From: the human T2T-CHM13v2.0 reference genome, Homo sapiens | DNA length: 64,000 nucleotides | Reading direction: 5' to 3' | Assembly (NCBI GenBank): GCA_009914755.4 | Contig: CP068257.2 | Location: 1,952,001-2,016,000 of the forward strand | Shown: piece after piece, positions 1,073-27,960 of the stretch | Layout of the letters: each line of letters opens with the position of its first letter | How positions within the stretch are numbered: the first letter of the stretch is position 1 | Program-made: the position numbers and the translations under genes | The notes under the pieces: generated by a model | Told to the model about the DNA's origin: nothing | Database searches by the model: none | The model's input: the letters and a program-made list of their open reading frames with translations, nothing else

Positions 1073-1520
1073 CTGAGCTTTCGGAGCAGCCCGGACAGAG
1101 CTCTCATACCTTTCCACCACCCCACCCCGGCCTGACCACCCCCTCCCGAACCCCGTCTCCCACCCCCGTAAAATGCGTCTTCCCTTAGGCTGGGTGAGGA
1201 CCCACGTCCTTCAAAACCTCGGGCCCACCCAGCCTCCAGGCCTGACAACCCTCCGACGGCTCGCCTCCTCTGAGCCTCCACGCCACCGTCGCCGGCCCGT
1301 CCGTGCCCCTGCAGCCTCCCAGCTGCCACCATGGAGTGTCTGGCGGCGGAACGCAGACTTCTAGCCCTCTTTGCCGGCCTCCTGGCTAGACCTGCGCTCA
1401 TTGCGCACCCCGGCTCGCGTGCAAGGGAGTCCGCTGGCCTCTCTGTGCCCTTGTCCGTCTATGAAATTCCGACTGAGGCTCTCCCAACACCTTCCGATGC
1501 TCTTTAGTCAAAGCCTGGAG
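1073..1520 (+). other. 3'-terminal fragment of a D4Z4-like element: the region downstream of the DUX4 ORF plus a pLAM-like segment. It is truncated on its 5' side exactly at the HSat1 junction and is a paralogue of 15520-15947.
   Basis: It aligns by eye, base for base, with 15520-15947 (AGCAGAGCTCTCAT[A/G]CCTTTCCACCACCCCACCCC ... CCTGCAGCCTCCCAGCTG[C/T]CACCATGGAG ... CTTTAGTCAAAGCCTGGAGAATAGTTACATCTCCTGGATGATCAGTTCAG). It is also homologous to the distal D4Z4/pLAM sequence of 4q35 as I remember it. Confidence 0.85.
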
Positions 1521-4500
1521 AATAGTTACATCTCCTGGATGATCAGTTCAGAAATACATCACAATGCCCCCTCCCTGCGGAGCCTACAGAAGATTTGCAT
1601 CATTTGGGTGATCAGTGCAGAGATATATCACAATGTCCCCTGTACAAAAAGCATGGAAATGATTTACACCACCTCGGTGATCAGTGCATAGGTATGTCAG
1701 AAATCCCCAGTAGGCTGAACCTAGACAAGGGTTACATCACTTAGGTGATCAGTGTAGAGATATGTGAAAAGTCCCATGTAGACAGAGCCTAGACAAGTGT
1801 TCCATCAGCTAGTGATCAGTGCAGGGATAAGTTGTAAAGCCTACTGTAGGCAGAGTGTAGACAAGTGTTTCCTCCCTGGGGTGATCACTGTAGAGATATG
1901 TCACAAAGCCCCTGTAAGCAGAACCTTGACAAGGGTTACATCACCTGTTTGATCAGTGGAAATGTATATCACAAAGTCCCCTGTAGGCAAAGCCCAGACA
2001 ATTGTTACATCACCTGGGTGAGCAGTGGAGAGATCTGTCACAATGCCCCTGTAGGCAGAGATTAAACAAGGGTTACATCACCTGGGTGATCAGTGCAGAG
2101 ATATGTCAAAACACTCCTGTAGGATGAACCTAGACAGGAGTAACCACCCGGGTGATCAGTGCAGAGATATGTGAGAATTCCCGTGTAGACAGAGTCTAGA
2201 CAAGCGTTACATCACCTAGGTTATAAGTGCAGGTATAAGTAGTAAAGCCTCCTGTAGGCAGAGCGTAGACAAGAGTTCCCTCCCAAGGGTGATAAGTGCA
2301 GAGATGTGTCACAAAGCCCCCATAGGCAGAGCCTAGACAAGAGTTTCATCACTTGGTTGATCAGTTCAGAGATGTGTCAAAATGTCCATGTAGGCAGATC
2401 TAAGACAAGAGTCCATCACCTGTGTGATCAGTGCAGAGATATGTACCAATGTCCCCTGTAGGCAGTGCCTAGACAAGAGTTACATCACCTCAGAGATCAG
2501 TGCATAGATCTGTCACAAAGCCTTCTATAGGCAAACCCATACAAGGCTTACATCATCTAGGTGACCAGCGCAGAGATACGTCACACAAATCCTTGTAGAG
2601 AGAGCCTAGACAAGGGTTACATCACCTAGATGAACACTACAGAGATATTTCACAATATCCCCTGTAGGCAGATCGTAGACAAGAGTTGAATCACCTGGGT
2701 GATCAGTGCAGAGATATTTCACAATGACCCCTATGGGTAGACGGTAGACAAGAGTTACATCACCTAGGTGATCCGTGCAGAGATTTGTCAAAATTCCCAG
2801 TAGGCAGTACTTATAGAAGTGTTACATCACCTAAGTGATCAGTGCAGAGATATGTCACAAAGCTCCTGTAGGCAGAACTTAGATGAGTTATATCACCTGG
2901 GAGATCAGTGCAAAGGTATGTCACAAAGCCCCATGTAGGCAAAGCCTAGACAATAGTTCCATCACTTGGGTGATCAGTGGCGAGATCTCTCACAATTCCC
3001 CTGTAGGTAGAGGTTATACAACAGTTACCTCACCTGGGTGATCAGTGCAGAGATATGTCACAATGCCCCCATAGGAAGATCCAAGACAAGAGTCCGTCAC
3101 CTGGGTGATCAGTGCAGAGATATGTGAGAAATCCCGTGTAGGCAGAGCCTAGACAAGTGTTACATCAACTAGGTTATCAGTGCAGGTATAAGTCATAAAG
3201 CCTCCTATAGGCAGAGCGTAGAAAAGAGTTCCCTCCCCAGGGTGATCAGTGCAGAGATGTGTCACAAAGCCCTGTAGGCAGAGCCTAGACAAGAGATTCA
3301 TCACTTGGTTGATCAGTTCAGAGATGTGTCACAATCTCCATGTAGGCAGATCTAAGACAAGAGTCCATCACCTGGGTGATCAGTGCAGAGATATGGACCA
3401 ATATCCCCTGTAGGCAGTGCCTAGACAAGAGTTGCATCACCTCAGAGATCAGTGCAGAGATATTTCACAAAGCCTTCTGTAGGCAAAGCCCATACAAGGC
3501 TTACATCACCTAGGTGATCAGTGCAGTGATATGTCACAAAAATCCCTGTAGACAGAGACTAGAAAAGAGGTACATCAACTGGGAGATCAGTGCAGATATT
3601 TGACACAATGCCCCCATAGACAGAGCCTAGACAAGACTTCCATCACCTTGGCGATAAGTGCAGAGATATGTCACAAATCCCCCTCTAGGCAGAGTACAGA
3701 GAAGAGTCCCATCACCTGGGTGATCAGTGCAGAGATATTTCACAATGCCCCCTGTGGGCAGAGAGTGGACAAGAGTTACATAACCTAGGTGGTCTGTGCA
3801 GAGCTATATCAAAACGCCCCTGTAGGCAGAGCCTAGATAAATATTACATCACCTGGGTGATCAGTGCAGAGATACGTCACAATAACCCCTGTAGGTGGAG
3901 CCTAGACAAGAGTTACATCAACTGGGTGATCAGTGCAGAGATATGTCACAAAGCCCCTGTAGGCACAGCCTAAAGAAGTGTTACATCACCTGGGTGATCA
4001 GTGAAGAAATATGTCACAAAGCCCCTGTAGGACGAGCCTAGACAAGAGTTGTTACATCTCCTGGGTGATCAGTGCAAAGATATGTCACAAAGCCCCCTGT
4101 AGACAAATCTCAGAAAATTGTTACATCACATGGTTGATCAGTGGAGATATCTGTCAAAATTCCCCTACAGGCGCAGCTTAGACAAGCGTTACATCACATG
4201 AGTGATCATTTCAGAGATATGTCACTATGCCCCCATAGGCAGATCCAAGACAAGAGTCCATCACCTCGGTGATCAGTGCAGATATATGCCACAATGCCAC
4301 CAGTAGGCAGATATAGAGAAAGTTACATCACCTGCGTGATCAAGGCAGAGATATGTCACAATGCCCCTGTAGGCAGAGCCTAGACGAGAGTCCCATCACC
4401 TGGGTGATCAGTGCAGAGTTATGTCACAATGCCCCCTCTTGACAGAGCCTAGAAAATGGTTATATCACCTGGGTGATCAGTGCAGAGATGTGTCACAACA

Positions 4501-26900: not shown

Positions 26901-27960
26901 GTCACAATGCCCCCAGTAGGCAGAGCCCAGACAAGAGTTGGATCACCTCGCTATCAGTGCAGAGATATGTCTCAACACCCCTTTGGGCACAGCCTAGAGA
27001 AGAATTACATCACCTCGGTTAACAGTGCAGAGATATGTCAAAATGTCCCTGTAGGCAGAGCCTACACAAGTGTTACATCACTTACGTTATCAGTGCAGAG
27101 ATATGTTACAATATCCCCTGTAAGCAGAGCCTAGACAACAGTTACATCACCTGGGTGATCAGTGTAGACATATGTGACAAGGCCTCTTTAAGCAGAGCCT
27201 AGACAATAGTTACATCAGCTGAGTGATCAGTGCAGAGATCTGTCACAATGCCACTTTAGGCAGAGCTTAGACTAGAGTTACATCACCTGGGTGATCAGTG
27301 CAGAGATATGTCACAATGCCCCCATAGGCAGATCCAAGACAAATGTCCGTTACCTGGGTGATCAGTGCAGAAATATGTGACAATGCCCCCAATAGGCAGA
27401 GCCTAGAGAAGAGTCCCATCACCTGGGTGATCAGTGCAGAGTTATGCCACAAAGCCCCCTGTAGGCAGAGCCTAGACAATACTTAGATCACCTGGTTGAT
27501 CAGTAAAGAGATATTTCACAATGACCCTGCAGGCAATGCGTAACCAAGAGTTACATCAAGTAGATGATCAGTGCAGAGATATGTCACTGGGCCTTCTATA
27601 GGCAGAGCCTGGACAAGAGTTAGATCATCTCGGTGATCAATGCAGTGATATGTCACTATGCCCCAGAATTCACAGCCTAGTCAAGCGTTACATCACCTGG
27701 GTGATCAGTGCAGGGATATGTCACAAGTCCCCCATATACAGAGCCTAGACAAGAGTCCCATCACCTGGGTGATCAGTGCAGAAATATGTCATGATGCCCC
27801 CTAGGCAGATCCAAAACAAGAGTTACATCACCTCGGTGAACAGTGAAGAGACAGGTCACAATGCCACCGTAGGCAGAGCCTAGACAAAAGTCCCATCACC
27901 TGGGTGGTCAGTGCAGAGATAGGTCACAATGCCCCCATACACAGATCCTATAAAATAGTC
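23958..27960 (+). repeat. Beta-satellite array 4, about 59 monomers. It ends about 100 bp short of the position where a D4Z4-like element would be expected.
   Basis: 68-bp Sau3A monomers. Its last ~1.4 kb is paralogous to the pre-D4Z4 blocks at 11520-13160, 18580-20150 and 21355-22632. Confidence 0.95.

What the first reader, a model, noticed from the sequence alone, without database searches (positions are those of the whole stretch)
1073..27960. Macro-tandem repeat of [D4Z4-like element + beta-satellite] units with nested deletions
The 27-kb beta-satellite domain is a macro-repeat of four units, not a homogeneous array. Each unit is, in order, a D4Z4-like element, beta-satellite carrying ~2.4-kb HOR copies, and a ~1.3-1.6-kb 'pre-D4Z4' beta-satellite block that contains a 204-bp trimer. 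The unit instances are as follows.
- The first unit begins upstream of the window, with its D4Z4-like element cut to a 3' fragment at 1073-1520. Its beta-satellite is array 1 (1521-13159), ending in the pre-D4Z4 block at 11520-13160.
- The second unit has the full D4Z4-like copy 1 (13160-15947), beta-satellite array 2, and the pre-D4Z4 block at 18580-20150.
- The third unit has D4Z4-like copy 2 (20150-20868), beta-satellite array 3, and the pre-D4Z4 block at 21355-22632.
- The fourth unit has D4Z4-like copy 3 (22632-23957), beta-satellite array 4, and the pre-D4Z4 block at 26560-27960. This block is followed by HSat3 instead of a D4Z4 element.
Unit lengths (at least 12 kb, 7.0 kb, 2.5 kb and 5.4 kb) differ because of internal deletions whose breakpoints are visible. 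The sequence 1073-2590 is paralogous to 15520-17010.
Basis: seen in the sequence. Interest (0 to 1): 0.55.

Follow-up and report, generated by a model that had tools for sequence, protein, structure and literature searches.

The report
Diverged D4Z4–beta-satellite (LSAU-BSAT) composite array

Summary
Observation confirmed. Window 1073-27971 holds four tandem units of [D4Z4-like element + beta satellite]. A 42-bp AT-rich satellite (1-1075) bounds it on one side and HSat3 (27972 onward) on the other. The GC-rich elements are at 1076-1505 (3' fragment), 13162-15932 (full, 2.77 kb), 20150-20871 (5' 0.72 kb) and 22633-23957 (5' 1.33 kb). They are 84-89% identical to one another. The full copy carries a DUX4 double-homeobox pseudogene (PDB DUX4L4, E=1e-79; two stops and a frameshift). 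The bSat-to-D4Z4 junction is identical in three units, and the D4Z4-to-bSat junction is identical in two. The flanking beta satellite is colinear over 1.1-2.1 kb at 88-93% identity, against 78% between random monomers. Permutation tests and a 30-mer dot-plot both show discrete long diagonals. A degenerate 35/36-monomer HOR (2391/2461 bp, about 92%) is real. Both truncated elements end at microhomology-type deletion junctions. Two details are wrong or overstated. Unit 1 is cut by the 42-bp satellite, not by the window edge. The 205-bp trimer duplication is present only in blocks 1 and 2. The structure matches the published LSAU-BSAT / "beta-composite" repeat of T2T-CHM13, including its 80-95% intra-array identity in centromere-transition regions. 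It is already known and of low interest.

The parts
1..1075 (.). Left boundary: 42-bp AT-rich satellite (HSat1A/SAR-like), about 25 copies, GC 0.22. It truncates the first D4Z4-like element.
   Evidence: TRF finds period 42, 25.5 copies, 80% matches. GC profile. The HSat1A = 42-bp SAR definition is from 10.1101/2021.07.12.452052.
1076..1505 (+). Unit 1 D4Z4-like 3' fragment (pLAM-side end). Homology to the full copy starts at about 1073-1083.
   Evidence: 1083-1556 matches 15510-15983 at 85.4% with no gaps. Alignment A2. 83.7% identity in the D4Z4 part.
1506..13161 (+). Beta-satellite array 1 (171 monomers). It consists of a post-D4Z4 block at 1506-1983(-2595), a HOR zone at about 1984-10996 (35/36-mer, 2391/2461 bp, about 3.7 copies), and a pre-D4Z4 block at 10997-13161 ending in a 58-bp monomer. 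It contains 205-bp trimer copies at 11470-12422, of which 11601-12010 is a 98%-identical pair.
13162..15932 (+). Unit 2 full D4Z4-like element (2771 bp, GC 0.65, 5.9 CpG per 100 bp). Its 3' end is continuous with pLAM-like sequence.
   Evidence: The pLAM-like junction is shown.
13957..15340 (+). DUX4-like pseudogene. The double homeodomain is encoded at 13957-14397, with in-frame stops at codons 19 and 148. A frameshift follows, then a 361-aa open C-terminal frame at 14255-15340 ending ...[10 protein letters not shown].
   Evidence: Translation. ORF list. Pfam Homeodomain x2, E=3e-32. PDB 5zfw DUX4L4 E=1e-79 over 147 aa. tblastn with DUX4 recalled from memory gives 78-82% aa identity.
15933..20149 (+). 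Beta-satellite array 2 (62 monomers). It consists of a post-D4Z4 block at 15933-17024, a partial HOR at about 16411-18050, and a pre-D4Z4 block at 18051-20149 ending in a 58-bp monomer.
20150..20871 (+). Unit 3 D4Z4-like copy 2: the 5' 0.72 kb only. The deletion junction to bSat is at about 20868-20871 (GAG microhomology).
   Evidence: 88% to 13112-13887. Alignment A3.
20872..22632 (+). Beta-satellite array 3 (27 monomers). It consists of short HOR-derived pieces at 20872-21305 and a pre-D4Z4 block at 21306-22632 ending in a 58-bp monomer.
22633..23957 (+). Unit 4 D4Z4-like copy 3: the 5' 1.33 kb, including a decayed DUX4 homeobox region at 23427-23955. The deletion junction to bSat is at about 23955-23957, where 12 of 19 flanking bases are similar between D4Z4 and the bSat monomer.
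   Evidence: 87% to 13109-14487.. Alignment A4.
23958..27971 (+). Beta-satellite array 4 (about 60 monomers). It consists of about one HOR copy (24257-26575 matches 4507-6898 at 92.8%) and a pre-D4Z4 block at 26508-27971. The block is cut at monomer position about 34, roughly 24 bp short of where D4Z4 joins in the other units.
27972..64000 (+). Right boundary: an Alu-3'-tail-like fragment (27972-28010) followed by HSat3 (GGAAT)n running to the end of the window.

Best explanation
The region is a short relic array of the primate LSAU-BSAT (LSAU-BETA, 'beta-composite') repeat. It sits between a 42-bp HSat1A-type satellite and HSat3, that is, in pericentromeric or acrocentric-type heterochromatin.

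The ancestral unit was [5'-truncated D4Z4 with a DUX4 retrogene + pLAM-like tail] - [a few distinctive bSat monomers] - [35/36-monomer bSat HOR copies] - [a distinct 'pre-D4Z4' bSat block]. This is the same D4Z4-pLAM-beta-satellite order as at 4qA.

Inferred history:
- The whole unit was copied in tandem, by unequal crossing-over or segmental duplication, at least four times. This happened long ago, since the units now differ by 7-16%.
- The array then stopped being homogenised and decayed. DUX4 became a pseudogene. CpGs were lost: about 20-27% of D4Z4 differences are CpG transitions, and bSat CpG o/e is 0.15.
- Two microhomology-type deletions each removed the 3' part of D4Z4, the pLAM tail and the proximal bSat, in units 3 and 4.
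- HOR copy number drifted between units.
- 205-bp trimers slipped, one of them recently (98% identity).
- The outer units were truncated by, or juxtaposed to, the neighbouring satellites.

Shown here: homology, junction identity, colinearity, breakpoints and pseudogene status. Inferred: the order and mechanism of events, the heterochromatic and methylated state, and the absence of a protein-coding or cis-regulatory function.
For: - 68-bp monomers: 320, all on the + strand.
- DUX4 double homeobox: Pfam E=3e-32 and PDB DUX4L4 E=1e-79, with 2 stops and a frameshift.
- The bSat-to-D4Z4 junction is identical in three units, at monomer position 58.
- The D4Z4-to-bSat junction is identical in two units.
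- The first monomers after D4Z4 are 84.5-85.6% identical to the published 4qA pLAM stretch around the DUX4 poly(A) signal. The bSat consensus is only 72% identical to that stretch.
- Flanks are colinear at 88-93% against a 78% background. Permutation null maxima are 0.30-0.45, against observed scores of 0.76-2.88.
- The 30-mer dot-plot shows discrete diagonals.
- Deletion junctions are resolved.
- CpG density is 5.9 per 100 bp in the full copy, against about 5.4% reported for divergent human D4Z4 paralogues (PMC10620044).
- Literature: the LSAU-BETA composite occurs on 16 chromosomes, and arrays in centromere-transition regions are 80-95% identical internally (10.1101/2021.07.12.451456). 'Beta-composite arrays' are bSat interspersed with LSau (10.1101/2021.07.12.452052). 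5'-truncated D4Z4-pLAM copies (319 in CHM13) lie in LSAU-BSAT regions and are interspersed with BSAT (PMC10620044).
Against: - No eukaryotic genome database was available, so species, chromosome and an existing annotation of this exact locus could not be checked.
- The full element is 2.77 kb, not the roughly 3.1 kb quoted for the common 5'-truncated D4Z4-pLAM class. I had no canonical D4Z4 nucleotide sequence with which to locate the difference.
- The right-hand breakpoints of the two deletions fall in HOR sequence, so their exact position in an ancestral unit is ambiguous.
- Methylation and chromatin state are inferred only from CpG depletion and the literature.
Confidence: 0.9

Rival explanations
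1. Unit-length differences arise mainly from expansion, not from deletions. Under this reading, unequal crossing-over amplified the 2.4-kb HOR in unit 1, and D4Z4 fragments were captured by non-homologous joins during duplication.
For: HOR content differs greatly between units: about 3.7, 0.7, 0.2 and 1.05 copies. HOR copies within array 1 are about as similar to each other (about 92%) as the units are to one another, so HOR copy number could have changed in either direction. A young 205-bp duplication shows that slippage still occurs.
Against: The D4Z4 truncations must be losses. Copies 2 and 3 are colinear with the 5' part of the full copy from the shared junction onward. They then jump straight into HOR-zone bSat, lacking the pLAM tail and the distinctive post-D4Z4 monomers that units 1 and 2 share.
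Confidence: 0.35
2. D4Z4-like elements inserted independently, by transposition or ectopic conversion, at several places in a pre-existing beta-satellite array.
For: DUX4 is regarded as a retrogene, and D4Z4-like copies are dispersed over many chromosomes (PMC12963445; PMC12376486 abstract).
Against: All three 5' junctions fall at the same base of a bSat monomer, and both 3' junctions are the same. The bSat on both sides is paralogous over 1.1-2.1 kb at 88-93% against a 78% background. There are no target-site duplications or poly(A) tails at the junctions.
Confidence: 0.03
3. There is no macro-structure, only a homogeneous 68-bp array whose apparent long paralogies are chance or alignment slippage. 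Alternatively, the arrangement is an assembly artefact.
For: Gapped BLAST finds about 79-80% identity at essentially any 68-bp register, so loose alignments can mislead.
Against: Specific registers stand out at 88-93% identity. Monomer-order permutations never approach the observed chain scores. Exact 30-mers cluster on a few long diagonals. Units differ by 7-16%, which is not what collapsed or duplicated assembly of identical repeats produces.
Confidence: 0.02

Closest known systems
LSAU-BSAT (LSAU-BETA) composite repeat / 'beta-composite' beta-satellite arrays of T2T-CHM13 (Hoyt et al., 10.1101/2021.07.12.451456; Altemose et al., 10.1101/2021.07.12.452052; Butterfield et al., PMC10620044)
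   Same: - D4Z4/LSau elements carrying DUX4-like sequence alternate with blocks of 68-bp beta satellite.
- They occur in tandem, in pericentromeric or acrocentric-type satellite surroundings.
- Intra-array identity is 84-93%, inside the 80-95% reported for centromere-transition arrays.
- The D4Z4 is 5'-truncated and keeps a pLAM-like tail.
- CpG density is about 6 per 100 bp, against about 5.4% reported.
   Different: This instance is very small (4 units, 27 kb). Two of its four units carry large internal deletions. The full element is 2.77 kb rather than about 3.1 kb. Whether this exact locus is already annotated could not be checked.
4qA distal end of the FSHD locus: D4Z4 - pLAM - 6.2-kb beta-satellite (PMC4787827; PMC7822190)
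   Same: The order and orientation are the same: DUX4, then a pLAM-like tail, then beta satellite. The roughly 99 nt around the 4qA poly(A) signal are 84.5-85.6% identical to the window's D4Z4-to-bSat junctions.
   Different: - There is no head-to-tail 3.3-kb D4Z4 array.
- The DUX4 ORF is disrupted.
- The ATTAAA poly(A) signal is absent: the window has GTCACA or ATCACA at that position, and no ATTAAA or AATAAA nearby.
- The location is between other satellites rather than subtelomeric.
Simple beta-satellite HOR arrays (Waye & Willard 1989 and Greig & Willard 1992, as cited)
   Same: 68-bp Sau3A-type monomers are organised in a multi-monomer higher-order period (35/36 monomers, about 2.4 kb).
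   Different: HOR copies here are only about 91-92% identical, number fewer than 4 per block, and are interrupted by D4Z4 elements. This is a degenerate HOR, not an actively homogenised one.

Membership tests
LSAU-BSAT composite / beta-composite array | Tandem 68-bp beta-satellite (Sau3A) monomers | tested here: met
   TRF finds period 68 across 1505-13160, 15932-20148, 20872-22631 and 23955-27970. There are 320 nhmmer monomers, and 303 of them are 67-69 bp long.
LSAU-BSAT composite / beta-composite array | Interspersed LSau/D4Z4-homologous GC-rich element carrying DUX4-like double-homeobox sequence | tested here: met
   Pfam Homeodomain x2, E=3e-32. PDB DUX4/DUX4L4 E=1e-79. GC 0.63-0.65.
LSAU-BSAT composite / beta-composite array | D4Z4 and bSat repeated together as one unit (same junctions, paralogous flanks) | tested here: met
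   Junction alignments. Colinear flanks at 88-93% identity. Permutation test.
LSAU-BSAT composite / beta-composite array | D4Z4 element of the 5'-truncated D4Z4-pLAM class (about 3.1 kb) with a pLAM-like 3' cassette | tested here: inconclusive
   A pLAM-like 3' junction is shown for about 99 nt against a published 4qA sequence. The element is 2.77 kb, with 795 bp upstream of the DUX4 ATG. No canonical full D4Z4-pLAM nucleotide sequence was available for a full-length alignment.
LSAU-BSAT composite / beta-composite array | Intra-array identity of 80-95% when located in centromere-transition regions (Hoyt et al.) | tested here: met
   D4Z4 parts are 83.7-88.8% identical and bSat flanks 88.5-93.1%. 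The location between HSat1A-like and HSat3 satellites is shown.
LSAU-BSAT composite / beta-composite array | Dense CpG methylation / constitutive heterochromatin | not testable with these tools
   Only indirect evidence: CpG o/e is 0.50-0.75 in D4Z4 parts and 0.14-0.16 in bSat, and 18-27% of D4Z4 mismatches are CpG transitions.
LSAU-BSAT composite / beta-composite array | Human or ape origin and chromosomal assignment | not testable with these tools
   No eukaryotic genome collection is offered. Identity to human DUX4 homeodomains is about 87% at the aa level.
Canonical D4Z4 macrosatellite (4q35/10q26 type) | Head-to-tail 3.3-kb units with no intervening satellite | tested here: not met
   D4Z4-like elements are separated by 1.8-11.7 kb of beta satellite, and there is only one full-length copy.
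Canonical D4Z4 macrosatellite (4q35/10q26 type) | Intact DUX4 ORF and, for the permissive 4qA allele, an ATTAAA poly(A) signal in pLAM | tested here: not met
   Two in-frame stops and a frameshift. No ATTAAA or AATAAA downstream.
Homogenised beta-satellite HOR array | Many HOR copies that are nearly identical (typically over 95%) | tested here: not met
   HOR copies are about 91-92% identical, with at most about 3.7 copies per block.

The most novel reading that the evidence does not exclude
The most novel reading not excluded is that this decayed array preserves an early state of the D4Z4-pLAM-beta-satellite junction. The sequence that carries the disease-permissive DUX4 poly(A) signal at 4qA aligns to what is here a recognisable, first, diverged beta-satellite monomer. 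At the ATTAAA position the window has the bSat-like states GTCACA and ATCACA. This suggests that the FSHD-permissive signal arose by a few point changes inside a beta-satellite monomer. Relic arrays like this one could then be used to order those changes. This may already be implicit in the FSHD literature (Lemmers et al. 2010, cited), which I could not read.
Probability: 0.1. Interest if true: 0.35.

Novelty: already known. Interest (0 to 1): 0.15.

Why it matters
Its importance is mainly as a calibration result. A tool-free reading of raw sequence recovered unit boundaries, junctions and deletion breakpoints of a complex satellite composite to within about 20 bp.

Biologically it is one more diverged LSAU-BSAT array. 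Such relic arrays are of modest use in three ways:
- for dating the spread of D4Z4-pLAM-bSat units in primates;
- for designing FSHD assays that avoid off-target D4Z4 paralogues;
- for studying how non-homogenised satellite composites decay through CpG loss, microhomology deletions and HOR copy-number drift.

Nothing here suggests a new element class or a new function.

Tried and rejected
- (1) High-stringency self-BLAST (word sizes 30 and 20, at least 85-88% identity, at least 300-400 bp) returned almost nothing in the bSat domain. This showed that the units are old. I had to drop to monomer-level identity matrices and relaxed scoring.
- (2) Relaxed BLAST alone was not discriminating, giving 79-80% identity at any register. 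I therefore used a colinear chain score with a permutation null and exact 30-mer diagonals.
- (3) Pfam and PDB searches of the 361-aa C-terminal ORF gave no hit. Its DUX4 identity rests on tblastn with a DUX4 sequence recalled from memory and on its contiguity with the homeodomain part.
- (4) An Rfam gathering scan of the whole window found nothing, including no miRNA family such as the MIR8078 mentioned for LSAU composites.
- (5) PMC9301658, my guess at the Hoyt et al. Science manuscript, is not held. I used the bioRxiv version instead.
- The collections are prokaryotic, viral or metagenomic and could not place a primate satellite.
- (7) Independent-insertion, chance and artefact readings were considered and rejected (see rival explanations).

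
Full report
**Layout of the window**

Base composition and Tandem Repeats Finder divide the window into three domains.
- 1-1075 is a 42-bp AT-rich satellite (GC 0.22, 25.5 copies).
- 1076-27971 is beta satellite (68-bp period, GC about 0.47) interrupted by GC-rich segments (0.58-0.67).
- 27972-64000 is (GGAAT)n HSat3.

An nhmmer scan with the 68-bp consensus finds 320 monomers, all on the + strand. It leaves non-satellite gaps at 1-1505, 13162-15932, 20150-20868 and 22633-23939.

**What the GC-rich segments are**

The full element, 13162-15932 (2771 bp), contains a DUX4-like gene on the + strand.
- The translation of 13957-14397 has two Pfam homeodomains (E=3e-32).
- It matches the solved human DUX4 / DUX4L4 double homeodomain over all 147 residues (5zfw, E=1e-79).
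- It carries in-frame stops at codons 19 and 148.
- A frameshift follows, then a 361-aa frame (14255-15340) that ends in ...[10 protein letters not shown]. It is therefore a pseudogene.

The other three segments are pieces of the same element.
- 1083-1556 is its 3' end (85%).
- 20100-20874 is its first 0.72 kb (88%).
- 22580-23957 is its first 1.33 kb (87%), including a more decayed homeobox region.

**The 3' end is pLAM-like**

The first, atypical bSat-like monomers after the element are at 15938-16036 and 1511-1609. They are 84.5% and 85.6% identical to the 4qA sequence around the DUX4 poly(A) signal, as printed in donor oligonucleotides in PMC7822190. The bSat consensus is only 72% identical to that 4qA stretch. 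The unit therefore has the D4Z4-pLAM-beta-satellite order known from 4qA (PMC4787827). However, the ATTAAA signal is replaced by GTCACA or ATCACA, and no ATTAAA or AATAAA lies nearby.

**Is it a macro-repeat rather than independent insertions?**

- The last bSat monomer before each of the three 5' junctions is cut at the same position. It is 58 bp long at 13104-13161, 20092-20149 and 22575-22632. The junction sequences align base for base.
- The 3' junction is the same in units 1 and 2 (92% column identity over the 601-column alignment of 1060-1660 with 15487-16087).
- A 320 x 320 monomer identity matrix has a background of 77.9% (sd 5.1%). Specific colinear registers stand out against it:
  - the post-D4Z4 block, 1506-2595 with 15933-17024 (16 monomers, 93%);
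  - the pre-D4Z4 blocks, 10997-13161 with 18051-20149 (91.7%), 21306-22632 with 18732-20149 (91.1%), and 26576-27937 with 18800-20091 (89.5%).
- Blocks 1-3 are 91-92% identical to one another, and block 4 is about 88.5% identical to each of them.
- Best chain scores of 0.76-2.88 compare with maxima of 0.30-0.45 when monomer order is permuted.
It does not show generic 68-bp striping. The stated refutation condition is not met.

**HOR and trimer**

Array 1 has a 35/36-monomer period (2391 and 2461 bp). Its copies are about 91-92% identical: 2596-4780 with 4987-7171, and 4781-6350 with 7240-8810. Partial copies occur in array 2 (16411-17843) and array 4 (24257-26575 with 4507-6898, 92.8%). This is a degenerate HOR.

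The 205-bp trimer is tandemly duplicated in block 1. There, 11601-11805 and 11806-12010 are 98% identical with a 184-bp exact run, and older copies extend across 11470-12422. It is duplicated more weakly in block 2 (18562-18971, 91%). It is not duplicated in blocks 3 and 4.

**Deletions**

- Copy 2 follows the full copy up to ...CAGGCTGGATGAG and then continues as bSat (ATATTTCACAAAG...). The two partners share GAG at the join, at about 20868-20871.
- Copy 3 follows the full copy up to ...CCCTCGTG and then continues as bSat. In this stretch 12 of 19 bases are alike between D4Z4 and the bSat monomer; the join is at about 23955-23957.
- In both cases the bSat that follows belongs to the HOR zone. 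The distinctive pLAM-like post-D4Z4 monomers are missing. Each event therefore removed the D4Z4 3' part, the pLAM tail and the proximal bSat.
- The left breakpoint of unit 4 (D4Z4 position about 1326) lies inside the interval lost in unit 3 (from about 726), and unit 4 keeps more HOR. This fits 'nested'. Because the HOR copy number of the ancestral units is unknown, nestedness of the right breakpoints cannot be proven.
- HOR copy number (about 3.7, 0.7, 0.2 and 1.05) also contributes to unit length.

**Ends of the array**

Unit 1 does not run off the window. Its D4Z4 element is cut at about 1073-1083 by the 42-bp satellite.

Unit 4's pre-D4Z4 block stops at monomer position about 34 (27971). 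That is about 24 bp before the point where D4Z4 joins in the other units. It abuts an Alu-3'-tail-like fragment that is part of the neighbouring HSat3.

**Age and decay**

Units differ by 7-16%. In the D4Z4 parts, 18-27% of mismatches are CpG transitions. CpG density is 4.9-7.2 per 100 bp in the D4Z4 parts, and CpG o/e is 0.14-0.16 in the bSat. This is the pattern of an old, methylated array that is no longer homogenised; the methylated state itself is an inference.

**Comparison with what is known**

- Hoyt et al. describe the LSAU-BETA (LSAU-BSAT) composite on 16 chromosomes, both arrayed and single. Arrays in centromere-transition regions are 80-95% identical internally (10.1101/2021.07.12.451456).
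- Butterfield et al. count 319 5'-truncated D4Z4-pLAM copies in CHM13. These lie mostly in LSAU-BSAT regions of the acrocentric chromosomes and chr1, are interspersed with BSAT, are about 90% identical to 4q D4Z4, have about 5.4% CpG, and are uniformly highly methylated (PMC10620044).
- Earlier work had already reported D4Z4 homologues interspersed with beta satellite in heterochromatin (PMC1852401; PMC4787827).

The window meets every defining feature I could test. The exact 5' truncation class is inconclusive (2.77 vs about 3.1 kb). Methylation, species and chromosome are not testable here.

**Verdict**

The object is an ordinary, already described kind of composite satellite. Interest is 0.15.

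The only mildly novel angle concerns the 4qA poly(A)-signal stretch. Here it aligns to a recognisable diverged bSat monomer that carries the bSat-like state at the signal position. I rate this as probably already known.

Noticed in passing
window 15938-16036 and 1511-1609: The first bSat-like monomers after the D4Z4-like element are homologous (84.5-85.6%) to the 4qA pLAM stretch that carries the DUX4 ATTAAA poly(A) signal. At that hexamer the window has GTCACA or ATCACA, the beta-satellite-like state. This suggests that the 4qA signal evolved inside a bSat-derived monomer. From memory, not verified: the 10q variant ATCAAA would be an intermediate.
   Followed up: partly
window 27972-28010, with recurrences at 29487, 29674, 31849, 34743 and 34929: An Alu-3'-tail-like motif (AGCCTGGGTGACAGAGGGAGACCCTGT, at most 3 mismatches, 6 copies against 0 expected) is embedded in units of about 187-192 bp within the first roughly 7 kb of HSat3. 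The bSat/HSat3 junction lies at the start of one such fragment.
   Followed up: partly
window 28000-64000: HSat3 is not uniform. GC is 0.44-0.485 with strong GC skew at 28-36 kb. GC is 0.37-0.40 with lower skew at 36-51 kb. GC is 0.42-0.445 with very high skew (0.82-0.90) at 51-64 kb, interrupted by a low-GC kilobase at 54-55 kb. These are probably different HSat3 subfamilies or blocks.
   Followed up: no
window 11601-12010: A young tandem duplication of a 205-bp (three-monomer) unit, 98% identical with a 184-bp exact run, sits inside units that are otherwise 7-16% diverged. Small-scale slippage therefore continued long after the macro-units stopped being homogenised.
   Followed up: yes
window 1-1083: A 42-bp AT-rich satellite (HSat1A/SAR-like, GC 0.22) directly abuts a truncated D4Z4-like 3' fragment. 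The composite array is thus bounded on both sides by other satellites, with breakpoints inside its units.
   Followed up: partly
window 13843-13937 vs 15800-15895 (and 1373-1468): A stretch of about 95 bp just upstream of the DUX4-like ATG is 76-80% similar to a stretch near the 3' end of the element. nhmmer also gives a weak beta-satellite hit at 13897-13940. This is an internal repeat of unclear meaning within the D4Z4-like element.
   Followed up: no
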